Below, piece by piece: positions 621-34,279 of a DNA stretch of 36,405 bases. Position 1 is the first letter of the stretch, and every line of letters begins with the position of its first letter. The stretch comes from a virus, in the UHGV virus genome UHGV-0210252. The stretch is one strand, 5' to 3'. A program made the translations under genes and the position numbers. The notes under the pieces are model-generated. The model ran no database searches and had not been told where the DNA came from. It was given only the letters and a program-made list of their open reading frames with translations.

Positions 621-643
621 TCTTCCCTATAGTGATAGTTAAG
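621..643 (-). promoter_or_regulatory. Phage RNAP promoter (phiOR-like), TSS about 626
   Basis: Plus strand cctatagtgatagtt at 626-640 = minus strand AACTATCACTATAGG; downstream of gene 19 as in T7. Confidence 0.75.
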
Positions 644-738
644 TCCAAACTCCTTGTAAAACAGTAGGTTAGACTGGTAGTAACTATAGGTTACTGACCG
701 CGTATTCATGCAGCTTTCACCCATAGTTATTCATTCAG

Positions 739-2502
739 CTAGTGAAACGTAACGTAGGACCCTAGCCCCAGCTCGTCGTCCGTATCGTGAGTCACCCGGA
801 CCCCATTGTCCCAGAACTCAGTGTGGATGGACTCGAAGCCTTTCCGTGGGTTCTCCATCTGTTCCTCCAGCCACTCCTCAGTGACTTCACGTTCGCCTTT
901 GTTGGCATCCTTAGCCATAGACTCAACGAAGAACTGTACACCGATAGCCAGAGCATCAAGTCGGTCATCGTGTGACAAGGCCCCACGTTCACGAGAGATA
1001 CGCGTCATCTGGTAGAAGAGAGAGTAGATAGGGTTACGAACGCCATCCTTATCAGAGGCTGTCTGGTAGTCTTGGACGATAGCAGCAGCGTTAACGATAA
1101 GTCGGTGAGACCCCATGATAGGCTCCAGAACGTCACAGATGCGGAGTTCTTTCTGAACCTTACTCTTTACTTCAGTTACAGCAGCAGGGTGAATACGGGC
1201 CGCTACGGGCTTGAATAGCTCAAGGTACATACCATCGCCGAAGTTGCCCTCAATGACGTATTCGTTGACCTTCCACTTACGACCAATCTTAGCCAGTGCT
1301 TCCAGCGTAGAGTCTTCATAACCTCCACGCATACCACCAACTTCCATAGCGAAGATGTAGCCGTTGAGCTGATACAGTACCGCATAACCAGTTTCATCCT
1401 TACCTCGACCACTAGGGTCAATGACCAGAATCTTCTGGGTGTACGAGCTGAAGGCAGAACCTACAGTCTGATACGTGTGGTATGAGTCACCCATGAGTCC
1501 AACGTTAGGAACGTCCTCACGCTTGTTCTGAGGGTTTGGCAACCATTGGTAGACCATTGGGCTGGACTCTGGGTCCAAGTCCGCTACGATAAGGTCACGG
1601 AGCTTCAGAGGGTACTTCTCGGCATCACTAAGGTTCGGGTTAAGCATGAACTGCAGAGCGAAGCCAGCTTTACCATAGGACAGTTCACGTTCCTTCAGGT
1701 CCGTATCATCGAATCGTACTTCATCGGTAGGACGCCAGTAGAAGGACTCAGGGTCCTCTTCCAGTTCTGCCTGAAGCATAGGAGCCAGACGGTCTCCGTA
1801 AGACTGCCAGTCCTTCCTGTCGCGTGGATAACGAGCTGGCCAGATAGTAGTGGTGTACCCACGGCCTTCCAGCTCACGATACAGGGTCATCTCGTTCTGA
1901 GGAGTACCCAGATAGATGATTGTACCTCCCGGCTTCAGGATAGCGTCGAACTCTTTAACAAGCTCTGACAGACGGTCTCGTGCAGCCTGAGTCGCTGAGT
2001 TGTTCGGAACCTCCACGTCATCGGCAATCAGGATGTCAGCACGACTACCAGTCAACTGACCAGTGATACCAACGGACTTAACCGAAGGTGAGTGGTCTGG
2101 CTTGGCTGGTCCAACGTCGAAGCTGATAACCGCATCTCGCTGACCCTGCTTAGGTTTGAGTTCCTGAAGCTGAGGCATGAGGTCGATGATTCGCTTGATG
2201 AAGATGGAGTTAGCATCGGCTCGCTCCTTTGAGGCCGACACAATCATGAACTTCAAGTCTGGGTTGTTCCATAGCTTCCAGACAACGAAGGCACACGTAA
2301 TGAAGGACTTACCTATACCACGGAACGCCTGTAAGATGAAGCGCCTGTTGTCCCCAGCCGATAGTTTCTTCGCCATGTCAATCTGACAGCGAGTCGGGAC
2401 TGGGAGTGACAGAGCTTTCCATAGGACGAACAGGAAGAACACGAAGTCTTCCTTCATGCGTGTGGTCATTAGCGCCTGACGAGCCACTAAGTCTTTACTC
2501 AA
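739..2502 (-). CDS. Terminase large subunit (T7 gp19, DNA maturase B)
   Basis: 587 aa; strong recalled similarity to T7 gp19 over whole length ([41 protein letters not shown]). Confidence 0.95.
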
Positions 2503-2504
2503 TG

Positions 2505-2948
2505 TTACACCTCCTTATCTTGCTGCAAGGCTCTCACAGTGTCCTGAAGCGCCTTAATCCACTTGTCTCCTTTCAGTCCGATGGAGATAAGACGTTTAGC
2601 ATCTCGTTCGTCAAGTTCGGCGTAACCATCAATGACGCATCGACCGTCACTTTGCGTGGTTCCACTCGTTGGTTTGACTCGGATGCGCAACCGCTTATTG
2701 TCAGACTGAAGGTCAGCAATAATCCTATCAGTGCTACCTTCCAGCGAGGACATTTCGTCCTGAAACCGTTTGGACACTTTGTTGACTTCAGCTTGGACAG
2801 CAAGCCTTGTATCCTCTGATGCCTTAAGATTCGAGGTGTATTCTGCATTGACCTTAGCCTCCCACTTATTGTTAGCGGTGTGGTAGCCACCAGCAAACAT
2901 CACTGCTGCAAGTAACCACGGAGCCGCTCTCTTTAAAAATTCGAGCAT
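2505..2948 (-). CDS. i-spanin (T7 gp18.5, Rz-like)
   Basis: 147 aa, N-terminal TM segment then coiled coil; position between small and large terminase genes as in T7. Confidence 0.85.
2573..2848 (-). CDS. o-spanin (T7 gp18.7, Rz1-like) embedded in +1 frame of the i-spanin gene
   Basis: ORF 2573..2896 contains signal-like segment [18 protein letters not shown] (lipobox-type Cys) and C-terminus ...[19 protein letters not shown] resembling T7 gp18.7; start chosen at internal Met (2848), start uncertain. Confidence 0.65.
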   Translation of the reverse strand: MQNTPRILRHQRIQGLLSKLKSTKCPNGFRTKCPRWKVALIGLLLTFSLTISGCASESNQRVEPRKVTVDASLMVTPNLTNEMLNVLSPSD

Positions 2949-3003
2949 AGCTGCCCTCCCGGTTTATCAGATTTCACGTAGAGTCTCCTCCACTAGTTAG
3001 TGT

Positions 3004-3049
3004 TAACCATAAAGGCCACTACATATAGTAATGACCTTGAGTCTAACAC
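3004..3049 (-). promoter_or_regulatory. RNase III-type processing hairpin (R18.5-like)
   Basis: Conserved element ATAAAGGCCAC...ATGACCTTGAGTCTA, one of three copies (also 26980-27024, 34215-34260); minus-strand RNA folds AAGGUCAUUAC/GUAGUGGCCUU; sits between genes 18 and 18.5 where T7 has R18.5. Confidence 0.55.
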
Positions 3050-3058
3050 TTAATAAAT

Positions 3059-3322
3059 TTACTGCACTCCATATCCAGTGTCATTATCTTCTGTAGCGGA
3101 GAGCACCTTATCGTACTCTGCGTTCAGGGCCTCCATATCAGCCAGCGTCTTCTCGTCCACAGACACCTTGCTTAACACAAAGTTGTGACGAGCCAGCAGC
3201 TTCTCAATGGCGTTGTAGAGCTGAGGTGAACGTTTAGAGTCATCCCGCAAGTCTTGCAGCATGAGTCGAGCACGTTCAGTATCTAGCATTAAGAGGAACT
3301 TCTCTAAGTCCATCTGCGTCAT
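3059..3322 (-). CDS. Terminase small subunit (T7 gp18, DNA maturase A)
   Basis: 87 aa; size and position match T7 gp18. Confidence 0.8.
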   Translation of the reverse strand: MTQMDLEKFLLMLDTERARLMLQDLRDDSKRSPQLYNAIEKLLARHNFVLSKVSVDEKTLADMEALNAEYDKVLSATEDNDTGYGVQ

Positions 3323-3513
3323 GTTTTACCACCTCCTTTAATCGTTTTGTAGACTAGCACACCAATCTGGACAACGGTGTACGCGATAGCTGCAACGTAG
3401 AACCATTCGTTCAGTGTAAGTCCGAAGAAGAACCGACTGGCACCATCAGCCGCAGCGGTTCCGACGATAGGAGAGGCTTTAAGGACCTCATTCTTGAAGT
3501 CTAACTCAATCAT
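3319..3513 (-). CDS. Class II holin (T7 gp17.5)
   Basis: 64 aa; MIELDFKNEVLKASPIVGT...FFFGLTLNEWFYVAAIAYTVVQIG closely resembles T7 gp17.5. Confidence 0.85.
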   Translation of the reverse strand: MIELDFKNEVLKASPIVGTAAADGASRFFFGLTLNEWFYVAAIAYTVVQIGVLVYKTIKGGGKT

Positions 3514-3646
3514 AAAACCTCCAGTTTCTCACGGTCCTGCCTGTCCCTTGTCTGGTTCTAAAACAGAGTCTTAAATCGTTCCTCCAGTCTGACTAGAAGC
3601 AGTTCAACCGATTCATTCATTCATAATATTACTAATATGTAAACTA

Positions 3647-3662
3647 ACCCCGCCTAAGCGGG
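3647..3662 (-). terminator. GC-rich stem-loop (CCCCGC-UUAG-GCGGGG) just 3' of gene 17; possible terminator or RNA-stability element
   Basis: Perfect 6-bp GC stem seen in sequence, followed on minus strand by UUAGUUUACAU (only weakly U-rich). Confidence 0.3.
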
Positions 3663-3687
3663 GTGTGGTGGGGGGTTATTGTTACTT

Positions 3688-5931
3688 TTAAGGTATTACA
3701 TTGCCCATATAATCCTGCCACTGTCCATATGCGTAATAGAACACCTTCTTACTATTAGGGTCAGACCAGTGAGTACCTGTAACAGGATTCTCAGGTCTAC
3801 CGCGTCCGTACAGAATTGCAGGTACTACAGCGTACTGCGCAGAACCATTGTCTGTAGCATCTGTAAGGGAGACGTAAGCAGCGGTGCCGTGAACATCAGG
3901 TCTGCGCTCTATGCCCCACATACCTAGTCTCGGACCCTTAGCATAAGTCATATCCTTCTGACCAGTTGCGCCTGCACGGGTAAAGCCCCCGAAGCAGTCA
4001 AACAGGAATGCAGGTGGGGTATAGTCTTTGAAGTTCTGAGCGATCTGCTGGCCTGTATCTCCAAAGCTACCGATATACGGACGTACGCCACCGTGAGTCT
4101 GCTTAACGCCGTCGAACTCTACGAAGCTGTCGCTAAGGTCAGAGCTTATACTTGGTTCAGAGAAGCTGAAGGTGAAGTCACTCCTAATGTCCACGAACCG
4201 CACCTGACTTTGGAAGGAAGTGTAGAAACTGCTGTTAAGGTTAGCTGGAACACCGCCGAGGTTTTCTAGTAGCACCTTACTGATATTCACAGAACTAGCT
4301 CCAAACTGGAAGTAGTGGTTGAATCCCGGAGAGGATGCTAAGTCAAATCCGTACACTGTACCTATATCTGCACGAGTACGTGTAAAACGTACAATCGGCC
4401 CTACTGTATCAGCCTTGGCAGATTCCCAGCCAAGTGAGCCTGCACTGCCGCTAAAGTCTACAAAGTCGTATGGGACACCATAGCACCGGTCGCAAGCAAG
4501 GCTACCAATACTGCTATATACGCAAGTAAGTTTATACGCTACACCAGTGCTTCCGTACACGAAGATATTATCTATGAAGTTAGTCGTACCCATAGTGCCC
4601 ATGATGAACCCGTTCCCGCATAAGCTGGAATGTAGGGCTGTGAATCGGGACAAGAAGACGGCGTCGTCGAACTTAATCATCGTACCAAAGCCTTCAATCC
4701 GCAGGTTATGCCACAGCATCTGGGAGCAACCGTTAGTAGCATGAATACCATAACCTACTGTACCAATAATGCTGCTTAAGTGCCCATCCTGAACAATATC
4801 AAAGTCTCTAAGGGATACGTTATAGGTATACTCCCCTGTGGCAGCTGGGCGTATACGTAGGCCATCTGAGCCGTTAGGGAAGGTAAGTAATGACTGTGAT
4901 CGCCCCTCGCCGTACATGTTCAAACCGCTCTTACTATAATGATTCTCTACAGTAATCGTTATAGGGTCCGAACAAAAGTAATTGCCTTCAGGAACTCCCA
5001 GTCTGCGTTTAGATGCTATGGCAGTAATAACAGCCTGCTGCACGGCAGCATAATCAATAGATTGATCAAGAGAAGTTACGAATGGATAGACAGCTTTCGC
5101 CTCTGCAAGTGTGGTGAATCTCTCACTTAATTTATGAAGAACGCCATCACCAATTGCGCCAAAGTCTTTTACACTAAGTACTTCAATAAGTTTATTATTA
5201 ACTGTTCTTCCTACCGAGCCGACAACTGGCTGTTTTGTTGCCACCAGCATATCGCCATTGCCATCACCTGAACTTGCCAGGGCTGCTCTCAATGATGCAT
5301 CACCAACACTAACCCATGCACCAATACCAACACCACCAGATGCTTCAGGTGTTGAGCCGGCAGGAACGTTCTTTGGAAGCATACCATCCCAGCGGTAATA
5401 CTCACCATCCTCTTCCCATAGCAGGACCTCGTTCCATGTTGTAATGTTGAAGCCTTTCTCGAAGGAGCGACGGGTAATATAGCCGATTAGACCAGATGCC
5501 TTGATATTATCAGCGATTCGTCGTGCTTCGTCCTCGCTATCCTTAGCGTTGCCAGCAGAGCTACCAGCAGCATCGGCATATTCCTTCGCTAAGTCAACAG
5601 TTTGGTCTCGACCTTCTTCTGCAATATGGATAGCCTGAAGCTCTGCATTGGTCAGGTCACTAGCTGTCAACACTGAGCCATTCCTGAAGTCTACCACTAA
5701 GTCAGTTCCAGTCTGACGGTGAATACGAACGACGTCGAAACCTGATTGGTCAACCAACATCTCAATCATCGTTGGATTAAGGAATCGGTAATCTCGACCG
5801 ACTTCCAGTACACGGTTCATGGTAGGGTTAGAGCTATTCACCAGCGTAACAACAACAAACGTTCTGGCTAGGTAGTCGAACTCAATCCTGTACTGAGTGT
5901 TTCCTGAAGGGAATTGTGTAATCGTGGACAT
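3688..5931 (-). CDS. Tail fibre / tailspike (T7 gp17 family) with divergent C-terminal beta-helix depolymerase-like domain
   Basis: 747 aa; first ~150 aa resemble T7 gp17 N-terminal attachment domain (FDYLARTFVVVTL...DYRF); remainder unlike T7 and contains VKDFGAIGDG motif typical of pectate-lyase-fold tailspikes. Confidence 0.9.
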   Translation of the reverse strand: MSTITQFPSGNTQYRIEFDYLARTFVVVTLVNSSNPTMNRVLEVGRDYRFLNPTMIEMLVDQSGFDVVRIHRQTGTDLVVDFRNGSVLTASDLTNAELQAIHIAEEGRDQTVDLAKEYADAAGSSAGNAKDSEDEARRIADNIKASGLIGYITRRSFEKGFNITTWNEVLLWEEDGEYYRWDGMLPKNVPAGSTPEASGGVGIGAWVSVGDASLRAALASSGDGNGDMLVATKQPVVGSVGRTVNNKLIEVLSVKDFGAIGDGVLHKLSERFTTLAEAKAVYPFVTSLDQSIDYAAVQQAVITAIASKRRLGVPEGNYFCSDPITITVENHYSKSGLNMYGEGRSQSLLTFPNGSDGLRIRPAATGEYTYNVSLRDFDIVQDGHLSSIIGTVGYGIHATNGCSQMLWHNLRIEGFGTMIKFDDAVFLSRFTALHSSLCGNGFIMGTMGTTNFIDNIFVYGSTGVAYKLTCVYSSIGSLACDRCYGVPYDFVDFSGSAGSLGWESAKADTVGPIVRFTRTRADIGTVYGFDLASSPGFNHYFQFGASSVNISKVLLENLGGVPANLNSSFYTSFQSQVRFVDIRSDFTFSFSEPSISSDLSDSFVEFDGVKQTHGGVRPYIGSFGDTGQQIAQNFKDYTPPAFLFDCFGGFTRAGATGQKDMTYAKGPRLGMWGIERRPDVHGTAAYVSLTDATDNGSAQYAVVPAILYGRGRPENPVTGTHWSDPNSKKVFYYAYGQWQDYMGNVIP

Positions 5932-5976
5932 TATGCCTCCTTTGTGATTTAAACGGAGACCTGTGGTAGCGCCTCC

Positions 5977-5999
5977 AGTTTCCTATAGTGATAGTTTAG
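5977..5999 (-). promoter_or_regulatory. Phage RNAP promoter (phi17-like), TSS about 5982
   Basis: cctatagtgatagtt at 5982-5996; followed on minus strand by leader with AAGGAGG and the gene 17 ATG. Confidence 0.8.
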
Positions 6000-8900
6000 T
6001 CCTTGATGTGGATGCCTTGCTCCTCAAACGTTCCAAGCAACAGCTTCTGGGTAATGGGGTCGTTCGGAACCAGTTCACGGAACGTATTATACATCCCGGT
6101 CATGTAGTCACGCTCGTTGACACGAGTATCAGCCTTGAGGTAGCCAGCCAAGTTGTAAGCCGAAGCGCCAACGTTAGCAGCATATCCGAAAGCTGGAACC
6201 TGCTCCAAGAAGTTACCAACAACATTCATCACAGGGTCACTTGTAGCTGCACCATACGCGATGGCACGTTCAGGCTTCTCTGTAGGCGAACGAGGTAGGA
6301 TAGACGAACGGAGCATCTTAGTGTCCTCGTACCCAGCGATACCCCCAAGAATGTTAGCTACCCCAAGTGGTCCACCAAGATGTGAACTACGCGATAGAGC
6401 CGCATATCCAATCATCGTCGGGTCCAGAGCTTGCTTGAGGTAATCACGGTCTCGGCCATCCTGCATAGCGTAAGCCTTGACGTGCGCCTGAGCCATGTAG
6501 TAGATACCGGCAAGTCCCATAGACATCACAGTTGACAGAGCAGCGTCCATCGCTCGGTTGTTCTTCGTGGCATTATAGAAGGTTCGCATGGTTCGCCCAT
6601 TGATGGACTTGATGACGAAGTTCTTAAACTGAAGGACAGTCTTAGCGAGAGGGCCATAAGCCTTGGCGTCCATGTTTGATAGCTTATGAGGTCGGAGTAA
6701 CGTTTCGTCAGCGATGGTGTCACCCATACGCCACAGGTCCATAGCCCTTGGGTCCTGACTGAACGCCTTCTTGTCCTTGATGGTATACTTCCCGTCTGGA
6801 CCACGAGTCACTGACTCACGGATTAGGGACTTAATACCCTTCCACTGCTCGTCAGAGATACCAGCGGTCTTCAGCCAGCGGTCATCGAACTTACGCTTAC
6901 TACCAGTCAGGCTATGCTCCACGATGTCAGACAGGAAGCCTTGACGTCCAGCATCTAACAGGTAGTTGGTCGTACCGTTGAGGACTTTAGTGAACGGAGA
7001 GCGTACTGCAAGTTCACCAGTGTAATACTTTGCAGATCCTAAAGCAGTAGCCGTAGGTTTACTCAAGGCGCTGTAAGCTCGTAGGCGGTCTATGACATCC
7101 TGTTTAGACGGACGGATTGAGTCATCCAGTTCCTTACCGAAGATAACATTGTGCAGGTCCTTAATCTCTGAGGCCCCTACCTTCTTGTTACGGAAGGCTA
7201 GGTCACGGAACATCGGGACTCCATGCAGCAGCGCACGAACGTTGCCACGAGCAAGCATACCACCAATCTCCGTTAAGTTCTGAACACCCATGTAGGCATT
7301 CTTAGCGAAGAACGATAGGTCTGTCATTGTGCGCATCACGGTAGCGAAGGCCGCATCATCAGCACCATCACGTCTAGCACGACCAGTTAGAATCTTCAAA
7401 GTGTCACGTAAGGTCGAGACCTCACCTTTCAACTTGCCGTCATCGCCAGCCTTGTTCATCATGGTCTCAACCAAGTCCTTCATGTCCTTCGTGGTCTTTC
7501 CTGTACCAGCCATGATAGCAATGTCACCATTAACTCGACGGTTGTATGCCGGGACAATCTTATCCATATCCCACTCACGTAGACTATTTACGCTGAACGG
7601 CTTACCATTTGGCAAGGTTATTTCCATGTCGTTATCGAACAGGTTGCGAGCCTCAAGGAAGTTATTGTTCTCCAGACCAACCAGACCGTTGATGTTTTCT
7701 TCCATTACGGATGAACGCTCAAACTGCTCTGTATGGGAGATACCATAAGCCTTATCATTAGCATACTTCTCTACCATATCCATAGTCACCTCTGGTGCTG
7801 CTTGAGATGCGTTACCAGATGTAGGTTCACCAGCAGTAGTGGTCTGACCATCTACAGCAGTCTTCTGCCCTTTGGCAGCTGCCACAGCCGATTCAGCTTC
7901 AGTTGTTGCTTTGGTGATTCTGTCTCGGACCTTAGCAGCCTGTCCTTTCATGTAGTCAAGACGCTCAGTGTTAATACGGACGTGAGACTTCTGAGTCTCA
8001 ATCATCTGCTTCCGGCTCTCAATCTTAACAGGAATGGTCTTGCTCTTAGGTTTAGCGGCTAGCTTTTCTTCCAACTCCTTCAGCTTAGCTTCATGGGAAG
8101 CCAGTCGGTCCTTTGAGTTCTGGAGTCTCTTTTCACGGTCTGCAACTCGCTTCTCAGCGTTGGTAAGGACATCTTTGAGTTCCGCTACCTTATCAATTGC
8201 CTGTGTAGCCGCATCGTCCAGTTTCATCTGGTCACGGGCTGCTTCTACAGAAGAACGATGATTTGATGCAGTACCTACAGTCTTACCTGCTGCTGGTTGA
8301 GATGCCCGTAACTGCTCTGCTAACATCTCGTCCACTCGCGCCTTGACTTCAGGTCTTGACGCATAGCTTGTCAACCATGACTTCTTGATTGCCTCCTGTA
8401 ACGCCTCTGGGCTTCCAAGCTCATTGATATAAATCTGCTTCATCTGAGAACTATAGACCACAGGAACGTAGGTTCCCTTGAATCTACTACCCGGGAAGAT
8501 AGACTGAGCATCTGTACGACCAAACATCGCTGGGTTCTCCATCATCTCGCGCTTTGCATCAAACTGGTTCTTCAGCAGGTCATAGACTTTCAGTTCCCCC
8601 GGAGTAAGTTCAGCCTTCAGGTTCCCGCTACCATCCTCAATAGCCAAAGCCTCGCGCTTATAAACATCCTCACGCAGAGCTGAGTTATCTCGCCAGAATG
8701 CTGTCTGGAAGTACGGGTCCTTGAGCGCCTCAGTAACAGCATCGTCGATGTCGTTGTAGAACCGATGGTCCACAGCACGAAGTCTCTCGAATACGTCTGA
8801 CGCAGTGGTCCCGATTTTACCTGAAGCCCCTGACTGCATACCAGTTGGTGAACGCACTAAGTCAGCAGCGACTCCACGAATCTCAGGGTTCTCAGACCGA

Positions 8901-10384: not shown

Positions 10385-10388
10385 TATG

Positions 10389-13750: not shown

Positions 13751-13800
13751 AAGGGCCTATAGTCCCTATAGTGATAGTTAAGGTAAATCTATAGGCCCTT
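13751..13800. repeat. Perfect 12-bp inverted repeat (aagggcctatag / ctataggccctt) enclosing the phi13-like promoter core
   Basis: Seen directly; arms at 13751-13762 and 13789-13800, promoter 15-mer at 13765-13779. Confidence 0.6.
13760..13782 (-). promoter_or_regulatory. Phage RNAP promoter (phi13-like), TSS about 13765
   Basis: cctatagtgatagtt at 13765-13779 between gene 12 stop and gene 13 start. Confidence 0.8.
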
Positions 13801-16984: not shown

Positions 16985-17028
16985 TAAGCAAAAAACCCCT
17001 CAAGCACCCGAAGGCACCCAAGGGGTTT
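16985..17028 (-). terminator. Tphi-like intrinsic terminator after gene 10
   Basis: Minus strand AACCCCUUGGGUGCC-UUCG-GGUGCUUGAGGGGUU followed by UUUUUUG; closely resembles T7 Tphi. Confidence 0.8.
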
Positions 17029-17031
17029 CAA

Positions 17032-18309: not shown

Positions 18310-18332
18310 GTCTCCCTATAGTGATAGTTTAG
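18310..18332 (-). promoter_or_regulatory. Phage RNAP promoter (phi10-like), TSS about 18315
   Basis: cctatagtgatagtt at 18315-18329; minus-strand leader GGGAGAC...GGTTTCCC...AGGAGA...CATATG resembles the T7 gene 10 leader. Confidence 0.85.
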
Positions 18333-18336
18333 TCAA

Positions 18337-19310: not shown

Positions 19311-19333
19311 TTGTTCCTATAGTGATAGTTTAG
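19311..19333 (-). promoter_or_regulatory. Phage RNAP promoter (phi9-like), TSS about 19316
   Basis: cctatagtgatagtt at 19316-19330. Confidence 0.8.
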
Positions 19334-20898
19334 GCTTGAGCCATGTCCTCACCAGCTCCCTGACCTACAGCAGCACCCATGTTAGCACCAGCAGCACTAG
19401 CACCTTGGACAACTGCCTGTTGAGACGACTGCTCAGCCATGCGCTGAATCTTCTCGTCTTGCGTCAGGAGTAGACCAGCGGTGTCGATACCCAGAGCGTT
19501 CAGGAGTCGCAGCTTAAGGGTCGGCAAGTTGATGTCCGGGTCCTGAGATAGCGGCTGAAGACCAGTCATCATGTTAACAGCCTGAGTTAGCTTCTCCAAG
19601 TCCTGACCACGACCTAACGCTTCTAGACCAGTGGATACCGTAGGCTCTACCGCTTCTTTCGGAAGGTCTGGAATCATGCCAGCAGACTGAAGCTGGTTCA
19701 TCAGCACACGGACTATAGGTAACTGAAGCTCTTGTGACTGTACCGAGTACACTCCACCTAAGGTCGCCTCCAGTTCTCCAGCAACATAACGAATCTCTTC
19801 AGCAGTGACTCGCTCGGCATTACGCTGAACAGCACTATTGAGAAGGAAGGCCCAGCCTAAACGTTGCTCGATAGCGTCAGCCACCGACTTGGCAATCGTA
19901 AAGTCCTGACCTTTCGTCAGTTGCAGGAAGTTGATGTCCTCGACGCGACCAGCCACGAACTCACCTGTAGCCGCCGTGTTCAGACGACGAGGTTGCGTGA
20001 TACCATTCGGGTTAACGAGGCCCACCACCTTGGAGGCTACCTTAGCCATTTTGGTGATAGCTTCTGTAATCGTCTCCAGCGAGTTCAGGTCCCCAAGATA
20101 CTCCTCGCAATAAGAACGACCATAGTCTTCACCGTCCAGTCGAACCATTCGTACCGGGATGTATGGACATGCAGTCAGTGGGTAGGAACCCTCGGTCCCT
20201 GCTACCTCAATGCCTTCCACTTCTTCATAGCGCAAATACTCGTCGTCCTGACGGTAGATGTGCGTATATACTTCCAGCTCTGTGTCAGGATCATAGTCGT
20301 CTGCGTTGAGTTGTGACTTCACGTCTTCCGGTAGAGCACTAAACGCTACCTTGTCGAGAGTCACAATCTGCAAGATGTTACCGAACGCATCACGTTGAAC
20401 AACGTAAGACACTAAGCGGTACATTCTCATGGGACTGTAGGTCCCCTGTTCAGGCTCTGGAATGTAGAGCAGACAGTTACCGGAGACGATAAGCTGCTTA
20501 AGAGCCTCAAACAATGGGACACGGAAACTGTTAGTCTCCATGTAGGCCATCAACACACGCTCGACCATAGCCAGCCCTTCGTCAACACGAGCAGCCGCCT
20601 CTGAGTCCTGACTCAAGGTCTTAGCCTCATATTCGGAGACTGTTAGTCGCATCCACGGTGATTGAGGGAATAGCGCCAACATCAGCTTTGCAGCCAAGTT
20701 GTTCAAGCAGCGAGCACCTACAGCTTGCCACGGAGTGGTGTACTCAGTAGATGAGTTGTCGGACTCCTTAGGAAACAGTGACGGGATAGTGACAGCAGCA
20801 CAGTTCTGAGCGCGTGTCTCATATGGCTGTCTACCGTTCTTCAGTCTATCATAAACTGCCTTCGCGCCTTCAGCAGCAAATCCTTCACGTTCAGCCAT
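19330..20898 (-). CDS. Head-to-tail connector / portal protein (T7 gp8)
   Basis: 522 aa; strong similarity to T7 gp8 (YETRAQNCA, TPWQAVGAR, YRLVSYVVQRDAFGN, RVTAEEIRYVA). Confidence 0.95.
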   Translation of the reverse strand: MAEREGFAAEGAKAVYDRLKNGRQPYETRAQNCAAVTIPSLFPKESDNSSTEYTTPWQAVGARCLNNLAAKLMLALFPQSPWMRLTVSEYEAKTLSQDSEAAARVDEGLAMVERVLMAYMETNSFRVPLFEALKQLIVSGNCLLYIPEPEQGTYSPMRMYRLVSYVVQRDAFGNILQIVTLDKVAFSALPEDVKSQLNADDYDPDTELEVYTHIYRQDDEYLRYEEVEGIEVAGTEGSYPLTACPYIPVRMVRLDGEDYGRSYCEEYLGDLNSLETITEAITKMAKVASKVVGLVNPNGITQPRRLNTAATGEFVAGRVEDINFLQLTKGQDFTIAKSVADAIEQRLGWAFLLNSAVQRNAERVTAEEIRYVAGELEATLGGVYSVQSQELQLPIVRVLMNQLQSAGMIPDLPKEAVEPTVSTGLEALGRGQDLEKLTQAVNMMTGLQPLSQDPDINLPTLKLRLLNALGIDTAGLLLTQDEKIQRMAEQSSQQAVVQGASAAGANMGAAVGQGAGEDMAQA

Positions 20899-22519: not shown

Positions 22520-22542
22520 AAGTCCCTATAGTGATAGTTTAG
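22520..22542 (-). promoter_or_regulatory. Phage RNAP promoter (phi6.5-like), TSS about 22525
   Basis: cctatagtgatagtt at 22525-22539. Confidence 0.8.
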
Positions 22543-22595
22543 TGTTTCACCTATGGATGACTGTTGGATTGATAGGATATGACTATCGGTTAGAC

Positions 22596-26979: not shown

Positions 26980-27023
26980 CTAATCATAAAGGCCACTCGA
27001 TGTGAATGACCTTGAGTCTAGAC

Positions 27024-27024: not shown

Positions 27025-28903
<1,879 letters not shown>

Positions 28904-28910
28904 TCACTCC

Positions 28911-29006: not shown

Positions 29007-29055
29007 AGGTCACTCCTTAATCACAAATGCGAACAAAGGGACAGGACTCACGGTC

Positions 29056-29078
29056 CCATCCCTAAGGTGATAGTTTAG
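29056..29078 (-). promoter_or_regulatory. Variant phage RNAP promoter (phi3.8 position), TSS about 29061
   Basis: cctaaggtgatagtt at 29061-29075: two changes in the -3/-2 region (CACCTTAGG versus CACTATAGG); may be weak or non-functional. Confidence 0.5.
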
Positions 29079-29290
29079 GCTTTGAAGAACTGAGCCAGCT
29101 GGTCAGCTTTGGTATCAGCCTGACGAGCCTTCATGCCAGCTTCCAGTGACGCGATGGTAAGCTTGTCAGCCAGAGCAGCAGCATCAGCCGCACCGTCAGC
29201 AGTCTTCTTTTCTACCTTTCGTTCCAGTACCGCAGCACGACGATAACCACGCACAACCAGACGACCAAGAAATTCGATAAGTTTAATCAT
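29075..29290 (-). CDS. Small coiled-coil hypothetical protein (71 aa)
   Basis: MIKLIEFLGRLVVRGYRR...QLAQFFKA; resembles by pattern a small T7-group protein family, ortholog unresolved. Confidence 0.5.
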   Translation of the reverse strand: MIKLIEFLGRLVVRGYRRAAVLERKVEKKTADGAADAAALADKLTIASLEAGMKARQADTKADQLAQFFKA

Positions 29291-29314
29291 TGAGTTGTTC
29301 TCCTTTATAGTTTA

Positions 29315-29773: not shown

Positions 29774-30257
29774 TGTACACCACCAGTTCTACTACCACCA
29801 GATTCAGGTGCTGGGTGAAGCGTTGTGCGTCCGTGGTGTGCATCTGGAGACGCTTATGGTTGAAGACGTGTGAGTTGCTAATCTTCACGTAAACTTCTTC
29901 AGGCTTTCCATGGACGATGAACGTCTGGCCTACACCAATCTTGTCGATTGTCAGGACTTCACGCTTCACAGTCACAGGAGGTACGCTCGAAGCTGGCAGG
30001 ACTTGAGTGGTCTGTACACCAGTGAGTTCCTCTTCTGGCTTGATTTCCTGAAGTTTGCAATTAAGTACCCATGCTCCCCACATACCATCAGGCTGAGTAT
30101 TGTAGCCGTTAGACCCATGTTTGTATGTCCCTGGAGTCTGGCACTCAACTAGGGTCATTCTTGAATCTGGTACGGGGTCCTTCTCACACTTGGTAACTAT
30201 AGTCCCACTAGGCCAGCCATACGCATCTACTAACAGTTTAAACTTCTTGCTCATCAC
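29763..30257 (-). CDS. Hypothetical protein (164 aa) inserted between endonuclease I and lysozyme genes
   Basis: Intact ORF in co-orientation overlapping both neighbours by a few nt; no motif recognised; T7 has no gene here. Confidence 0.5.
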   Translation of the reverse strand: MMSKKFKLLVDAYGWPSGTIVTKCEKDPVPDSRMTLVECQTPGTYKHGSNGYNTQPDGMWGAWVLNCKLQEIKPEEELTGVQTTQVLPASSVPPVTVKREVLTIDKIGVGQTFIVHGKPEEVYVKISNSHVFNHKRLQMHTTDAQRFTQHLNLVVVELVVYNGK

Positions 30258-30706
30258 TTAACTCCTTTCTTCTTGGGGATGAGTATTCCTGAAGGCAGAC
30301 GTACAGTCGCCTCTCGCAGCCACTCAACCGGGATGAATTTATCGGCATACTTATAGCCGTTCTTTTCGCACCATGCACCATACGTGGTCGGAGACCCTTT
30401 GTATAACTTGGAGCGGGAACTTGAGAACACGAACCGTATGTCTAACTCTGGGTGCTGTTCTCGTACCAGAAGGTGCTTCTTACGGTCATCACTGTCGAAG
30501 ATACCTTTGGTCTCGACGATGATACCGTTAGGAAGGATAAAGTCTGGTGTATACTTGTGGTCGGAAGCCGGAATCACATAGTTGATATAATGGCTTTCGT
30601 ACTCCGCTTTGACGCCGTTCTGTTCCAGCCACTGCTGGTTCTTAGCTTCAAGTCCAGAGCGGTAGGCACCCACAGAGTGCCCCCGTTTTGCAGACCATTG
30701 GGCCAT
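30254..30706 (-). CDS. Endonuclease I, Holliday-junction resolvase (T7 gp3)
   Basis: 150 aa; YVIPASDHKYTPDFILPNGIIVETKG, DRKKHLLVREQHPELDIRFVFSSS match T7 gp3. Confidence 0.92.
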   Translation of the reverse strand: MAQWSAKRGHSVGAYRSGLEAKNQQWLEQNGVKAEYESHYINYVIPASDHKYTPDFILPNGIIVETKGIFDSDDRKKHLLVREQHPELDIRFVFSSSRSKLYKGSPTTYGAWCEKNGYKYADKFIPVEWLREATVRLPSGILIPKKKGVK

Positions 30707-31404
30707 TAGAAGTCGTAATCGCCACCAGAGCCGGAGTAGTCACCACCTTCGGAACCATCGTCACCGAAGTCATCAGACCCGAAGTCACCATCAGTTGACG
30801 CTTTGTAACCAGTACCGAGGTCTTCATCATCACCCCAGCCACCATCGCCACCAGCACCATCGCCTTTCCACTCCTTCAGTTCTACCAGAAGGCAGGACTC
30901 AAGCTGGAGCTTAACGCTTGCACCAGTCGCGGCGTTCCACTTGAACGGCAGGACTTTAAACTTGACCTTCAGCTTAGACCCAGCGCCAATATTCGGGACG
31001 TCACGGATGAGTTTAGCATCGGTGTCGTAGAACCGTAATACGATAGGCTCGGACTTGCCGTCTTTAAGGTAAGACGCAAAGCATTTGAACTTCAGGGTAA
31101 CAGTACCATCACCATTCTCAATCCACGGCATATCGCCTTCACGCGGCTCGATAGGCTTCTTGCCACGCTGAACCTGAGGTGGGTTCTTCTCGTGGTCTGC
31201 GAGTGCTTTCGCATACGCATCGTCGTGAATCTTCTGTAAGACATCAATCATCTTACGGACCTTCGGGTTGCTCAGGTCGAATGTCAGGTTGACTTTGTGT
31301 TCACCACGCTCGTTGAACTTGGTGTCTGCTTTGTTCAGCCATGCGTAAGGCTCAACGATACCAGCTACCGGAGTGGTGAAAGTCTTCAGTTGCTCTTTAG
31401 CCAT
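30706..31404 (-). CDS. Single-stranded DNA-binding protein (T7 gp2.5)
   Basis: 232 aa; GSKLKVKFKVLPFKWNAATGASVKLQLESCLLVEL and acidic C-terminal tail ending in F, as T7 gp2.5. Confidence 0.92.
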   Translation of the reverse strand: MAKEQLKTFTTPVAGIVEPYAWLNKADTKFNERGEHKVNLTFDLSNPKVRKMIDVLQKIHDDAYAKALADHEKNPPQVQRGKKPIEPREGDMPWIENGDGTVTLKFKCFASYLKDGKSEPIVLRFYDTDAKLIRDVPNIGAGSKLKVKFKVLPFKWNAATGASVKLQLESCLLVELKEWKGDGAGGDGGWGDDEDLGTGYKASTDGDFGSDDFGDDGSEGGDYSGSGGDYDF

Positions 31405-31442
31405 CGGTGTAAATCTCCTAATTTAAAGTTACGAACTGGACG

Positions 31443-31465
31443 TCTGTCCTACAGTGATAGTTTAG
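31443..31465 (-). promoter_or_regulatory. Variant phage RNAP promoter (phi2.5 position), TSS about 31448
   Basis: cctacagtgatagtt at 31448-31462 (one change at -2). Confidence 0.6.
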
Positions 31466-31623
31466 GTCTCAGGACGAATCCGTCCTACCACAAACCCAGC
31501 GTCCTCATACTCTTGGGACTTAAGGGTAGCCTCTTCAAGAGACTTTGCGTACACCGGAACCTCGAAGGACTGAACGCGACCCTCAAGCTCCACGATGTAC
31601 TTCTTCTTCTCAACCTCAGTCAT
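31462..31623 (-). CDS. Host RNA polymerase inhibitor (T7 gp2), 53 aa, hand-translated
   Basis: [53 protein letters not shown]; SFEVP.YA..L.EA and AGF.V.R.RP match T7 Gp2. Confidence 0.75.
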
Positions 31624-31739
31624 AAAATCTCCTTGTCGAGAATCTCTTCCAGCTTAACAAGTTCCTCTTCGGATAAATCAGTGAAGTCCACGAACTCCTT
31701 AATAAGCTGACACACAAAGTTAATCTGGTCTTGGTTCAT
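31620..31739 (-). CDS. gp1.8-position small acidic protein (39 aa), hand-translated
   Basis: [39 protein letters not shown]; stop overlaps gp2 ATG (ATGA). Confidence 0.4.
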
Positions 31740-31817
31740 AAACCGCGCTCCTTCCATTGGTTGTATAACGTAATGTAGTCCGGATTGAGAGTCTTCTCAT
31801 ACATCTCCCGGCACCAC

Positions 31818-32261
31818 TCACTCGGTAGCATAACACTTACCTTTATGCAGGTTGAACAGCTCCTGATAGAAGGCTGCTTTGTTCAGGTCCTTCTCCATAG
31901 TAGCCAGCTCTGACTTCTTACCAGCCCGGAGTCGATACTTCAGGACGTTACCCATGCAGAAACCACGGAACTCGCTGACAGTCATGGACCGAGCGATAAT
32001 CTCAATGGACTCCACACCGTCAAAGACCTGATAGTGGGACGGTTTACGGACGCTGTCTTCCTGACCTATTGTTGTCTGCTCGGTCTGCTCCTGATTGGTG
32101 ATTTCTAAGGCACTAGAGGAGTGAATGACTGGTTCAGATAAACAGGGCCACTTAACCACAACTATGTGCCCCATTCTAACCATAATCACCTTGCCACAGG
32201 AGAGTCCCATGTAGGCTGTAACTGGTCCAACATATTTAACTGTATCCCCAACCTTAACCAT
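31818..32261 (-). CDS. Nucleotide kinase (T7 gp1.7 family), shorter N-terminal region
   Basis: 147 aa; C-terminal half (KPSHYQVFDGVESIEIIARSMTVSEFRGFCMGNVLKYRLRAGKKSELA..DLNKAAFYQELF) matches T7 gp1.7; N-terminal half differs. Confidence 0.75.
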   Translation of the reverse strand: MVKVGDTVKYVGPVTAYMGLSCGKVIMVRMGHIVVVKWPCLSEPVIHSSSALEITNQEQTEQTTIGQEDSVRKPSHYQVFDGVESIEIIARSMTVSEFRGFCMGNVLKYRLRAGKKSELATMEKDLNKAAFYQELFNLHKGKCYATE

Positions 32262-32514
32262 TGACCACCTCCTTCACGTACTCAATGAATAGACGAACGC
32301 GAGGCCACTTAGTGTAGACCACAGGTACGTTGGTCTCACGCTTCTGGCGAGCCTCTTCAGCTTTGCCGGGAGTAATCAAGGCGAATACTGTAGGTGATAA
32401 CTTAACAGCCTTCCCGAAGTAGCCCAGCTTCTCGTTGCGCTTAATGCAAGCGAACGGGTTGTTGGACAGGTGGAAGGTATTTGTATAACGGTTGAACATT
32501 AAGTTCTTAGACAT
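32254..32514 (-). CDS. gp1.6-position protein (86 aa)
   Basis: Synteny and size only; AAGGAGA RBS after the promoter. Confidence 0.5.
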   Translation of the reverse strand: MSKNLMFNRYTNTFHLSNNPFACIKRNEKLGYFGKAVKLSPTVFALITPGKAEEARQKRETNVPVVYTKWPRVRLFIEYVKEVVNG

Positions 32515-32536
32515 AGAGTCTCCTTGGTTGTTTGTT

Positions 32537-32559
32537 GTAGTCCTATAGTGATAGCTTAG
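32537..32559 (-). promoter_or_regulatory. Phage RNAP promoter (phi1.5/1.6 position), TSS about 32542
   Basis: cctatagtgatagct at 32542-32556 (one change at about -13). Confidence 0.7.
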
Positions 32560-32595
32560 GGTCCAGCTGGTGTCCCAGACGATAGCTTGCTAGCA

Positions 32596-32632
32596 CAAAG
32601 CAAAGAAACCCAGCAGTCCGAAGACCACTGGG
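32596..32632 (-). terminator. TE-like intrinsic terminator after the DNA ligase gene
   Basis: Minus strand CCCAGUGGUC-UUCG-GACUGCUGGG (10-bp stem with two G.U, UUCG loop) followed by UUUCUUUGCUUUG; T7 has its early terminator after gene 1.3. Confidence 0.65.
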
Positions 32633-32643
32633 TTGACATTTAA

Positions 32644-33732
32644 TTAGCTCTTAATGGTCGGGTTATCTTCCGTCCCGCGCCAGCACTTGAAGCTAGGGTG
32701 ACGTAAGGAACCATCTGGTGTCATCTCCATGTAGGAGACCTCACACTGCCAGCCCTCGTATGGATTGACACCGCCAAGGATATATGTGTCGGTGTTACAT
32801 GCTTCCGTGAACTCATCCATCATAGCCTGAGAGATATTGTTAGCAGCAACTACCATACCGTTCTCAAGCAGTACGTCGAACCCAATCACCTTACCTTCGT
32901 TAGCGAGACCTTCAGTCCCCCAATTCAGTCCAACCACAGTACCATCAATGGTATCCTCAGGCTTCATTTTCCACATGCCTGACTTCTTACCACGCTTCCA
33001 CTTACCCAGCGGGTCCTTGACTACCAGACCCTCGTGTCCTTCCAGACGCTTCTCTTCGTACAGGGAGTTGAGCGACTCAAGGTCATAGACCGTGTGTGAC
33101 TCAGACAGAACCCAGTCAATTTCCGGGAAGTATTTCTTGAGGAGAGGGACGATAGCTTCGGCCTTCAGGCGGGTTACGCTATGGATAGGACCTTCGGCTT
33201 TCGGGTCGAGGATGACGTTAAGGTCGATGACCCCGTAGACGACTACCTGAATGTGTTCAGCAGCCAGCAGGAACGGTAGCTTTGACTTAGCGCCTGTTGA
33301 CTTGCGGGGCATCTCGTCAAACTTAACGTCATTGAACTTGAGGTTATCAGGCTTCAACCACTTCGTTCGTATGAGACCTGAAGACGTGTTGAAGTCTACA
33401 CCCTTGACCATGATCTCACCATCAATCATCAGGCCAGTGCCTTCGTAGCCAGCTTGCTTCAGGAACCAGAGCCAGTCAGACGCATTGGAGAGTCGAGGGT
33501 CTGCTACCTTATAGTCTCCTGCTGAGGTTGACAACCAGCTCAACGCTGGAAGCTCCTTGGACTCGCGGCTTAACCATTGAGTCTCACCAGTAGGAAAGAC
33601 CGGAAGATTCAACCGGACACCGTCATACTTCACCTCAGCTTCCAGTGACCCAGCAGCTTCCAGTGCTTTCTTAACGCCTGACTCAGAGTAATCTACAGCG
33701 CGATGCGGGTTAGTTTTGATAGTCGTAGTCAT
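32644..33732 (-). CDS. ATP-dependent DNA ligase (T7 gp1.3)
   Basis: Start set at MTTTIKTNPHRAV (T7 MMNIKTNPFKAV); EVKYDGVR adenylation motif, GHEGLVVKDP, WKMKPE, PDGSLRHPSF; track's upstream Met at 33810 rejected. Confidence 0.9.
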   Translation of the reverse strand: MTTTIKTNPHRAVDYSESGVKKALEAAGSLEAEVKYDGVRLNLPVFPTGETQWLSRESKELPALSWLSTSAGDYKVADPRLSNASDWLWFLKQAGYEGTGLMIDGEIMVKGVDFNTSSGLIRTKWLKPDNLKFNDVKFDEMPRKSTGAKSKLPFLLAAEHIQVVVYGVIDLNVILDPKAEGPIHSVTRLKAEAIVPLLKKYFPEIDWVLSESHTVYDLESLNSLYEEKRLEGHEGLVVKDPLGKWKRGKKSGMWKMKPEDTIDGTVVGLNWGTEGLANEGKVIGFDVLLENGMVVAANNISQAMMDEFTEACNTDTYILGGVNPYEGWQCEVSYMEMTPDGSLRHPSFKCWRGTEDNPTIKS

Positions 33733-33736
33733 TGTG

Positions 33737-33994
33737 TTATCTCCATGTGTCGAGTTGGTTAGCGAGACAGTTAAGGAAGCCTGTTGCAGTGTTGTACAGT
33801 ACGTCTTCATCGCGGTGTGCGAAGGTCTTAAGTGCGAAGATGTTACCTGCTAGGTCCTCGACTTGAAGTCTCATGCACTCTTTCTGAAGATGCGCCTCGT
33901 ACCAATGCTGCTGTATCACGCAGAAGTCTAACTGATAAAGCCTGTTACACGCTGCTTTGAAAGCGTTGAGGCTTCCACTATAAAGTCGGCCCAT
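33737..33994 (-). CDS. gp1.2 (host dGTPase inhibitor family)
   Basis: 85 aa; MGRLYSGSLNAFKAACNRLYQLD...HRDEDVLYN closely matches T7 gp1.2. Confidence 0.85.
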   Translation of the reverse strand: MGRLYSGSLNAFKAACNRLYQLDFCVIQQHWYEAHLQKECMRLQVEDLAGNIFALKTFAHRDEDVLYNTATGFLNCLANQLDTWR

Positions 33995-33998
33995 AGCG

Positions 33999-34178
33999 TT
34001 ATGCTCCTACGAAGTATTTCTCTTGGTTGACCATAGAGTCTTTACCTTCAGCATTACGGAAAGCGCCTTTGATGCCACCGCCACGTTTAGTCTTGTTCAG
34101 CTTGCGGCCCTTCGGAATGTAACCTTCAGTCTGCTGACGTTCACGGATGCGCTCGAAGTTGATAGTGTTCTGATACAT
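33999..34178 (-). CDS. gp1.1-like small basic protein (59 aa), hand-translated
   Basis: MYQNTINFERIRERQQTEGYIPKGRKLNKTKRGGGIKGAFRNAEGKDSMVNQEKYFVGA; KGRKLNKTKR matches T7 gp1.1; GGAGA RBS. Confidence 0.6.
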   Translation of the reverse strand: MYQNTINFERIRERQQTEGYIPKGRKLNKTKRGGGIKGAFRNAEGKDSMVNQEKYFVGA

Positions 34179-34214
34179 ACTGTTAAATCTCCAGTAGTTT
34201 ACGTTAGTAGTAAG

Positions 34215-34260
34215 GGTTAATCATGAAGGCCACGACTTTGAGTCATGACCTTGAGTCTAA
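34215..34260 (-). promoter_or_regulatory. RNase III-type processing hairpin (R1.1-like)
   Basis: Third copy of ATGAAGGCCAC...ATGACCTTGAGTCTA, immediately downstream of the phi1.1-like TSS. Confidence 0.55.
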
Positions 34261-34279
34261 TCCTATAGTGATAGTTTAG
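34257..34279 (-). promoter_or_regulatory. Phage RNAP promoter (phi1.1-like), TSS about 34262
   Basis: cctatagtgatagtt at 34262-34276. Confidence 0.8.

What the first reader, a model, noticed from the sequence alone, without database searches (positions are those of the whole stretch)
621..34279. Ten phage-RNAP promoters with a consensus distinct from T7, T3, SP6 and K11
The 15-mer cctatagtgatagtt (plus strand) occurs at 626, 5982, 13765, 18315, 19316, 22525 and 34262, with single or double variants at 29061, 31448 and 32542; all are in intergenic positions matching T7 class II/III promoters. The minus-strand consensus ACTAAACTATCACTATAGGGAGA keeps the T7-like -8..+6 block but differs in the -12 to -9 specificity region (T7 GACT, here CTAT). 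This predicts an RNAP specificity loop different from T7 and a potentially orthogonal polymerase-promoter pair; the RNAP N-terminal specificity region lies outside the window.
Basis: partly seen in the sequence, partly recalled or inferred. Interest (0 to 1): 0.45.

Follow-up and report, generated by a model that had tools for sequence, protein, structure and literature searches.

The report
Known K1F-type phage RNA polymerase promoters
The ten repeats are real promoters for the phage's own RNA polymerase, but they are the already known promoters of coliphage K1F and its relatives, a polymerase-promoter pair already used as an orthogonal tool in synthetic biology.

Summary
CCTATAGTGATAGTT occurs seven times exactly and three times with 1-2 mismatches, at the stated coordinates (chance expectation 0.09). 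All ten sites run the same way as the genes, which lie on the minus strand.

The window is a reverse-complemented Kayfunavirus (K1F-like T7-group phage), 93-95% identical to phages ST31 and K1F. K1F carries the same element at the same ten gene positions, including the same three variants. Seven of the ten 23-mers (-17..+6) match K1F exactly.

The consensus MCTWAACTATCACTATAGG is distinct from annotated T7, T3 and K11 promoters and from SP6 sites I located myself. It is the published K1F promoter class (ACTAT at -12..-8).

It does not: the C-terminal 452 residues of the polymerase are in the window (35049-36405, minus). The specificity loop (35391-35486) is identical to K1F's. It differs from T7 at Q754S, R756N and I761V, the three substitutions tabulated (PMC11880802, Table 2) for the T7(K1F) orthogonal polymerase of Temme et al. 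2012.

Verdict: real, well understood, already known, low interest. One side observation may merit a look: an in-frame amber codon in essential gene 15.

The parts
622..644 (-). Promoter -17..+6, phiOR-equivalent (downstream of gene 19); ACTTAACTATCACTATAGGGAAG; predicted +1 at 627
   Evidence: orthologous K1F site at 38852
5978..6000 (-). Promoter phi17 (overlaps the gp16 stop codon, 51-nt leader to the tail-spike gene); predicted +1 at 5983
   Evidence: 23-mer identical to K1F 32597
13761..13783 (-). Promoter phi13; predicted +1 at 13766; sits in the loop of a 12-bp hairpin
   Evidence: identical to K1F 25321
18311..18333 (-). Promoter phi10 (major capsid gene); the only site with the full ...TATAGGGAGA; predicted +1 at 18316
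   Evidence: identical to K1F 20997
19312..19334 (-). Promoter phi9 (overlaps the gp8 stop codon); predicted +1 at 19317
   Evidence: identical to K1F 19998
22521..22543 (-). Promoter phi6.5; predicted +1 at 22526
   Evidence: identical to K1F 17177
29057..29079 (-). Promoter upstream of primase/helicase gene 4 (class II; variant core CACCTTAGG); predicted +1 at 29062
   Evidence: same variant in K1F at 10866 and in IMG/VR relatives
31444..31466 (-). Promoter phi2.5 (class II; variant CACTGTAGG; overlaps the end of gene 2); predicted +1 at 31449
   Evidence: identical to K1F 8499
32538..32560 (-). Promoter phi1.6 (class II; variant with G at -12); predicted +1 at 32543
   Evidence: same variant in K1F at 7183
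34258..34280 (-). Promoter phi1.15 (first promoter after gene 1; overlaps the stop codon of the 159-aa ORF); predicted +1 at 34263
   Evidence: identical to K1F 5552
35049..36405 (-). 3' part of gene 1: C-terminal 452 codons of the phage single-subunit RNA polymerase (runs off the window end)
   Evidence: 450 of 451 residues identical to K1F gp1, 72% identical to T7 RNAP
35391..35486 (-). Specificity loop (T7 residues 739-770 equivalent): YRKKDTTRLNLMFLGSFNLQPTVNKGTKKELD, with R746, N748, S754, N756, Q758, V761
   Evidence: identical to K1F. Between T7 residues 745 and 761 it differs from T7 only at Q754S, R756N and I761V, the set listed for the K1F graft in PMC11880802 Table 2
16986..17029 (-). 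Tphi-like terminator between gene 10 and gene 11: 17-bp G+C-rich hairpin followed by U6
   Evidence: same position as the annotated Tphi of T7 and T3
32607..32634 (-). TE-like intrinsic terminator (12-bp stem plus T-run) just after the ligase gene and upstream of phi1.6
   Evidence: same position as the annotated TE of T7 and T3
13751..13800 (-). Perfect 12-bp hairpin (AAGGGCCUAUAG / CUAUAGGCCCUU) enclosing phi13; probable R13-type RNase III processing site
   Evidence: z = -3.18, 1 of 200 shuffles as stable; T3 annotates RNase III site R13 overlapping phi13

Best explanation
These are the ten middle and late promoters of a Kayfunavirus (K1F-like T7-group podophage) that fall in this window. 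They are read by the phage's own single-subunit RNA polymerase, gp1.

By analogy with T7, which is established knowledge and not shown here, the polymerase binds duplex DNA from -17 to -5. An N-terminal AT-rich recognition loop reads -17..-13. The C-terminal specificity loop reads about -12..-7 in the major groove. The polymerase then melts the TATA at -4..-1 and starts with GTP at the GG (+1/+2).

K1F-class specificity (ACTAT at -12..-8, against CGACT in T7) goes with a loop carrying S754, N756 and V761, while R746, N748 and Q758 are retained.

The six sites in the structural-gene half (phi6.5, 9, 10, 13, 17, OR) have the perfect core. Three of the four sites in the DNA-metabolism half carry the variants. 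This mirrors T7's class III (strong, consensus) versus class II (weaker, variant) division.

Shown here: the sequences, their synteny, the cognate polymerase loop and the identity to K1F. Taken from the literature: that this loop-promoter pair is active and largely orthogonal to T7. Inferred: the exact start sites and relative strengths in this phage.
For: The ten sites greatly exceed chance and all lie on the gene strand.

The PWM gap is 31.6 against 15.7 bits.

The window is 93-95% identical to Kayfunavirus genomes ST31 and K1F.

K1F has the element at 11 sites. Ten are orthologous to the window's sites and include the same three variants; seven of the ten 23-mers are identical.

Gene context matches T7, T3 and K11 promoter slots: phi1.x, 1.6, 2.5, 3.8/4, 6.5, 9, 10, 13, 17 and OR.

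The gp1 C-terminal half in the window is 450/451 identical to K1F, and its loop differs from T7 at Q754S, R756N and I761V.

Literature: the K1F loop grafted into T7 RNAP drives a T7 promoter carrying the K1F -12..-7 block (17-fold induction) and was reported orthogonal to T7, T3 and N4 (PMC3458549). Table 2 of PMC11880802 lists 754S/756N/761V with cognate ACTAT. K1F RNAP with PK1F has been used as an orthogonal expression and mutator system (PMC12218169). The same repeat, CTWAACTATCACTATAGG, is reported as promoters in another Kayfunavirus (PMC13298934).

The 15-mer recurs in at least 120 IMG/VR stretches. Of these, 64 contain a full 23-mer match of at least 25 bits, many from contigs of about 39-40 kb.
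Against: No transcription data exist for this particular phage, so start sites and strengths are inferred.

The N-terminal half of the polymerase, including the AT-rich recognition loop, is outside the window and was not seen.

The two-mismatch site at 29061 changes the melting region (TATA to CTTA) and could be weak. It is, however, conserved in K1F and in IMG/VR relatives.
Confidence: 0.95

Rival explanations
1. One reading: the promoters represent a new specificity class not matching any characterised phage, giving a new orthogonal polymerase-promoter pair.
For: The consensus is clearly different from T7, T3, K11 and SP6. Cross-scoring under each other's PWMs gives at most 13.7 bits, against 31-38 bits for cognate sites.
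Against: The sites are identical to the K1F promoter set, site by site. The polymerase loop is identical to K1F's. The K1F pair is already characterised and in use (PMC3458549, PMC4299498, PMC11880802, PMC12218169). The same consensus has been published for another Kayfunavirus (PMC13298934).
Confidence: 0.02
2. The repeats are not promoters, or not primarily promoters. They could be some other dispersed element, such as RNase III processing sites, recombination hot spots or module boundaries.
For: phi13 sits inside a strong hairpin resembling the T3 R13 RNase III site. One indel relative to K1F (the 159-aa ORF) has its junction exactly at the -17 edge of a promoter, with ACCCTA microhomology.
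Against: Only one of the ten sites has such a hairpin, and the fold at phi6.5 is no better than shuffles. The -7..+2 core CACTATAGG is the T7-group promoter core. The element carrying the K1F -12..-7 block drives transcription experimentally (PMC3458549). These secondary roles would add to promoter function rather than replace it.
Confidence: 0.02
3. Only the seven exact sites are functional. The three variants (29061, 31448, 32542) are decayed, inactive copies.
For: The variants change -12 (A to G), -3 (A to G) or -4/-3 (TA to CT), positions that are invariant in the other sites. They have the three lowest PWM scores.
Against: Each variant is conserved at the orthologous K1F position and recurs in IMG/VR relatives. 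All three lie upstream of DNA-metabolism genes, where T7 also uses non-consensus class II promoters. Without them genes 1.6 to 6 would have no phage promoter other than phi1.15.
Confidence: 0.1

Closest known systems
Coliphage K1F (Kayfunavirus K1F) promoters and gp1 RNA polymerase
   Same: Same 15-mer core and the same ACTAT at -12..-8. The same ten gene positions and the same three variants. Seven of ten 23-mers are identical. The polymerase C-terminal half is 450/451 identical and the specificity loop is identical.
   Different: Three 23-mers differ from K1F at one or two positions outside -16..+2 (phiOR, phi1.6, phi4). The phage itself is a different strain or species: about 93-95% nucleotide identity, a different tail spike, extra ORFs and a diverged ligase region. 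K1F's eleventh promoter, upstream of gene 1, would lie outside the window.
Engineered T7(K1F) RNAP / P_K1F orthogonal pair (Temme et al. 2012; Segall-Shapiro et al. 2014)
   Same: Between T7 residues 745 and 761 the window's loop differs from T7 only at Q754S, R756N and I761V, the substitutions tabulated for the K1F graft. The promoter -12..-7 block matches what was grafted.
   Different: The engineered promoter replaces only -12..-7 in an otherwise T7 promoter. The natural sites have MCTWA rather than T7's TAATA at -17..-13 and variable +3..+6. The engineered enzyme is T7 RNAP outside the loop.
T7 class II / class III promoters
   Same: 23-bp architecture, the CACTATAGG core, GG start, co-orientation with genes, and the same gene slots. 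Perfect-consensus sites sit before structural genes and variant sites before DNA-metabolism genes. A Tphi-like terminator follows gene 10 and a TE-like terminator follows the ligase gene.
   Different: -12..-8 is ACTAT against CGACT, and -17..-14 also differs. The window has 10 sites (K1F has 11 in the whole genome) against 17 in T7. T7 sites score -16.5 to -2.3 bits under this window's PWM.

Membership tests
T7-group (Studiervirinae) single-subunit RNAP promoters | A conserved element of about 23 bp (-17..+6) with the core CACTATAGG and G at +1/+2, repeated across the genome | tested here: met
   Ten sites. The core is invariant apart from -4/-3 at two sites. Total information is 36.5 bits.
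T7-group (Studiervirinae) single-subunit RNAP promoters | All copies co-oriented with the genes and located in front of the syntenic transcription units | tested here: met
   All ten sites are on the minus strand with the genes. Their slots match the annotated T7, T3 and K11 promoters.
T7-group (Studiervirinae) single-subunit RNAP promoters | A cognate T7-like RNAP gene in the same genome | tested here: met
   The C-terminal 452 codons of gp1 lie at 35049-36405 and are 72% identical to T7 RNAP.
T7-group (Studiervirinae) single-subunit RNAP promoters | Transcription actually initiates at +1 with the phage RNAP | not testable with these tools
   The only support is from the literature on the K1F pair (PMC3458549, PMC12218169).
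K1F / Kayfunavirus promoter specificity class | ACTAT at -12..-8 | tested here: met
   Nine of ten sites have ACTAT and one has GCTAT, the same variant as in K1F. ACTAT is the cognate sequence listed in PMC11880802 Table 2.
K1F / Kayfunavirus promoter specificity class | Specificity loop with S754, N756 and V761, and R746, N748 and Q758 retained (T7 numbering) | tested here: met
   the loop is identical to K1F gp1.
K1F / Kayfunavirus promoter specificity class | Poorly used by T7 RNAP (orthogonality) | not testable with these tools
   The only computational proxy is that the window sites score -27.6 to -3.7 bits under a T7 PWM. The experimental statement comes from PMC3458549. PMC11880802 rates that four-pair set as only moderately orthogonal, with a ratio of 8.
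Genus Kayfunavirus | High nucleotide identity and collinear gene order with K1F-like genomes | tested here: met
   93-95% identity over 87-91% of the window to ST31, K1F and others. 40 of 41 K1F proteins map in order.

The most novel reading that the evidence does not exclude
For the promoters, the most novel reading left open concerns the natural upstream block at -17..-13 (MCTWA, against TAATA in T7). Together with the divergent region of K1F-type polymerases that aligns with the start of the T7 N-terminal domain (an 11-residue insertion in K1F relative to T7), it could form a second specificity determinant. This region is outside the window. The loop-graft experiments did not probe it, because they replaced only -12..-7. 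Separately, the in-frame TAG in essential gene 15 could be genuine rather than a sequence error, which would imply a suppressor-dependent or otherwise tolerated nonsense allele.
Probability: 0.15. Interest if true: 0.25.

Novelty: already known. Interest (0 to 1): 0.06.

Why it matters
It matters little beyond correct annotation. The result places the window as a K1F-like phage and allows its ten middle and late promoters, its Tphi-like and TE-like terminators and its polymerase loop to be annotated by homology. The hoped-for new orthogonal polymerase-promoter pair already exists, as K1F RNAP or the T7(K1F) graft with P_K1F. No new engineering part or specificity rule emerges.

Tried and rejected
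- A PWM scan for weaker promoters found nothing between 15.7 and 31.6 bits.
- The Rfam gathering scan of the whole window gave no matches.
- The fold of the phi6.5 region was no more stable than shuffles (z = +0.12), so no R6.5-type hairpin is claimed.
- A megablast of a 46-nt phi10 segment to count phage records returned only 4 records and was uninformative because of the 28-nt word size.
- An exact-protein lookup of the tail spike to find the source contig found nothing on record.
- The K1F genome paper (J Bacteriol 2005) was not held under its DOI or the PMC id I guessed. The supplement of Temme et al. was not held either. The K1F promoter sequence was therefore taken from the K1F genome itself and from Table 2 of PMC11880802.
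- TAG recoding as an explanation for the gene 15 stop was rejected. TAG ends 5 of 38 ORFs, and gp15 is the only gene with an internal stop.
Full report
**Observation.** It is exact at 626, 5982, 13765, 18315, 19316, 22525 and 34262. It has one mismatch at 31448 and 32542, and two mismatches at 29061. Dinucleotide-preserving shuffles give 0.09 matches on average and never more than 2. All long ORFs are on the minus strand, so the elements read AACTATCACTATAGG in the direction of the genes. A position weight matrix built on -17..+6 scores the ten sites at 31.6-37.6 bits. The next best site in either strand scores 15.7 bits. The list of ten is therefore complete for this window.

**What the window is.** Megablast shows a reverse-complemented K1F-like T7-group podophage of the genus Kayfunavirus. 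Bases 1-20000 are 94.8% identical over 91% to Escherichia phage ST31. Bases 20001-36405 are 93.5% identical over 89% to K1F. Forty of 41 annotated K1F proteins map to the window in order. The window runs from near the right genome end back into gene 1.

**Comparison with K1F.** The K1F genome (DQ111067) has the same 15-mer at 11 positions. Ten of them are orthologous to the window's sites. They include the same three variants at the same genes: AGCTATCACTATAGG, AACTATCACTGTAGG and AACTATCACCTTAGG. Over the full 23 bp, seven of the ten window sites are identical to their K1F counterparts. The other three differ at one or two positions outside -16..+2. K1F's eleventh site lies upstream of gene 1, beyond the window.

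With the gene names of the AM084414 annotation, the sites lie upstream of genes 1.15, 1.6, 2.5, 4, 6.5, 9, 10, 13 and 17 and downstream of gene 19. I label them phi1.15, phi1.6, phi2.5, phi4, phi6.5, phi9, phi10, phi13, phi17 and phiOR by analogy with T7. These are the slots occupied by annotated promoters in T7, T3 and K11. At least five elements overlap the stop codon of the upstream gene, so 'intergenic' is only approximately true.

The six sites in the structural half have the perfect core. Three of the four in the DNA-metabolism half carry the variants. This parallels T7, where class III promoters are identical and class II promoters deviate.

**Distinctness from the classic polymerases.** I used the annotated promoters of T7 (17), T3 (13) and K11 (13), and 12 SP6 sites that I located with the SP6 core. 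The consensus sequences are:
- T7: TAATACGACTCACTATAGGGAGA
- T3: AATTAACCCTCACTAAAGGGAGA
- K11: AATTAGGaCaCACTATAGGGAGA
- SP6: ATTTAGGTGACACTATAGAAG (the core string I searched with, taken from general knowledge, not a consensus computed from the sites)
- this window: MCTWAACTATCACTATAGG

Foreign sites score no more than 13.4 bits under the window's matrix. Window sites score no more than 13.7 bits under the T7, T3 and K11 matrices. With numbering from the annotated T7 start sites, the GACT to CTAT change is at -11..-8, not -12..-9. Positions -12 and -17..-14 differ as well.

**The polymerase.** In fact the last 452 codons of gene 1 lie at 35049-36405 on the minus strand. They are 450/451 identical to K1F gp1 and 72% identical to T7 RNAP. 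The specificity loop (T7 residues 739-770) is encoded at 35391-35486 and reads YRKKDTTRLNLMFLGSFNLQPTVNKGTKKELD, identical to K1F.

In T7 numbering it keeps R746, N748 and Q758. Between residues 745 and 761 it differs from T7 only at Q754S, R756N and I761V. Those three substitutions are the ones listed for the K1F loop graft, with cognate promoter block ACTAT, in Table 2 of PMC11880802. Only the N-terminal domain, which in T7 carries the AT-rich recognition loop that reads -17..-13, is outside the window.

**What is already known.**
- Temme et al. 2012 (PMC3458549) mined phage RNAP beta-hairpins and their promoters. They grafted the K1F loop (T7 Q744-I761) into T7 RNAP and the K1F -12..-7 block into the T7 promoter. 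They obtained 17-fold induction and orthogonality to T7, T3 and N4 variants.
- Segall-Shapiro et al. 2014 reused the pair in split polymerases.
- PMC11880802 places K1F as one node in the natural RNAP-promoter specificity network.
- PMC12218169 uses K1F RNAP with PK1F as an orthogonal system in Halomonas and E. coli.
- A 2026 description of another Kayfunavirus reports the repeat CTWAACTATCACTATAGG at the 3' ends of genes and in intergenic regions, and calls it the promoter.
- The 15-mer occurs in at least 120 stretches of IMG/VR contigs. The window's own 23-mers recur many times there, many in contigs of about 39-40 kb. My filter required CTAT or CACTATA, so the invariance of those columns in that tally is partly forced.

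**Mechanism.** By homology with T7, the polymerase binds the duplex at -17..-5 and reads -12..-8 in the major groove with the specificity loop. It opens the TATA at -4..-1 and starts with GTP at GG. The structural basis is summarised in PMC11880802: R746, N748, R756 and Q758 hydrogen-bond to bases. The K1F class changes one of those four contact residues (R756N). This goes with the change at -9 (C in T7, A here). How the -11/-10 change is read while N748 is retained is not resolved by anything I ran.

Transcription units are bounded by a Tphi-like hairpin plus U6 after gene 10 (16986-17029). A TE-like terminator follows the ligase gene (32607-32634). Phi13 sits in the loop of a perfect 12-bp hairpin (13751-13800, z = -3.2), like the annotated T3 R13 RNase III site that overlaps phi13.

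**Verdict.** This is an ordinary, already known feature.

**Side observations.**
- The most notable is an in-frame TAG at 11997-11999 in gene 15, the internal virion protein C gene. K1F and seven other relatives read GCC TAC there and the window reads GGC TAG. It is the only internal stop among the mapped genes.
- Relative to K1F the window has a 159-aa ORF inserted exactly at the -17 edge of phi1.15, with ACCCTA microhomology at both junctions. This ORF is common in other relatives, so K1F probably lost it.
- It has an HNH endonuclease gene between genes 7.3 and 8, the slot of T7 gene 7.7.
- It has a 75-aa ORF between genes 11 and 12, an insertion of roughly 170 codons in gene 16, and a different tail-spike C-terminal part.

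Noticed in passing
window 11997-11999 (minus strand), within gene 15 (10389-12671): There is an in-frame amber codon at codon 225 of the essential internal virion protein gp15. The window reads ATG GGC TAG CTT. K1F, PDP21P1, Penshu1, PH1061 and all other held relatives read ATG GCC TAC CTT. The difference is two C-to-G changes 4 bp apart, which also create an NheI site (GCTAGC). It is the only internal stop among 41 mapped K1F proteins. TAG is used as a normal stop in 5 of 38 ORFs, so recoding is unlikely. The possible causes are a sequence error, a defective genome or a suppressor-dependent allele; this is undecided.
   Followed up: partly
window 34263-34742 (minus): A 159-aa ORF (phrog_8103, unknown function) is absent from K1F but present in about 110 phage records. 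The indel junctions carry ACCCTA microhomology, and one junction is exactly the -17 edge of the phi1.15 promoter. The ORF's TAG stop lies inside the promoter's TATAG. K1F retains the orphan ribosome-binding site, which suggests K1F lost the gene by deletion.
   Followed up: partly
window 22492-22514 (minus): A degenerate promoter-like 23-mer, CCTAAGATATGACTATAAGATAG (15.7 bits), begins 7 nt after the +6 end of phi6.5. It is identical in K1F, and its ATGACTATAAGATA core is conserved in 14 IMG/VR relatives. It is possibly a decayed tandem promoter. No significant hairpin was found there.
   Followed up: partly
window 13751-13800 (minus): The phi13 promoter lies in the loop of a perfect 12-bp hairpin (z = -3.2). 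This resembles the T3 R13 RNase III site that overlaps phi13.
   Followed up: partly
window 20891-21301 (minus): A 136-aa HNH endonuclease ORF (phrog_6254) lies between genes 7.3 and 8. It is absent from K1F. T7 has its HNH gene 7.7 in the same slot.
   Followed up: partly
window 24466-24861 (minus), within the DNA polymerase gene region 24188-26959: The DNA polymerase gene is interrupted by an HNH homing-endonuclease gene that is 100% identical to K1F gp5.3. K1F annotates gene 5 as joined from two pieces at this point.
   Followed up: no
window 7796-8314 (minus), within gene 16 (5996-10384): gp16 is 1462 aa here against 1295 aa in K1F. Roughly 520 bp in the middle of the gene have no K1F counterpart.
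   Followed up: no
window 3688-5271 (minus): The tail-spike gene (747 aa) shares only the N-terminal 220 residues with the K1F endosialidase (1064 aa). The receptor-binding part is different, so the host capsule or O-antigen specificity is probably not K1.
   Followed up: no
window 16175-16402 (minus): A 75-aa ORF lies between genes 11 and 12 and is absent from K1F. It matches phrog_986 ('RNA-binding protein') at E = 9e-35.
   Followed up: no
window 31627-33994: The early and middle region is mosaic relative to K1F. Amino-acid identity to K1F is 71% for ligase gp1.3, 77% for gp1.2 and 58% for gp1.7, and gp1.75 is absent. Most other genes are 92-100% identical.
   Followed up: no
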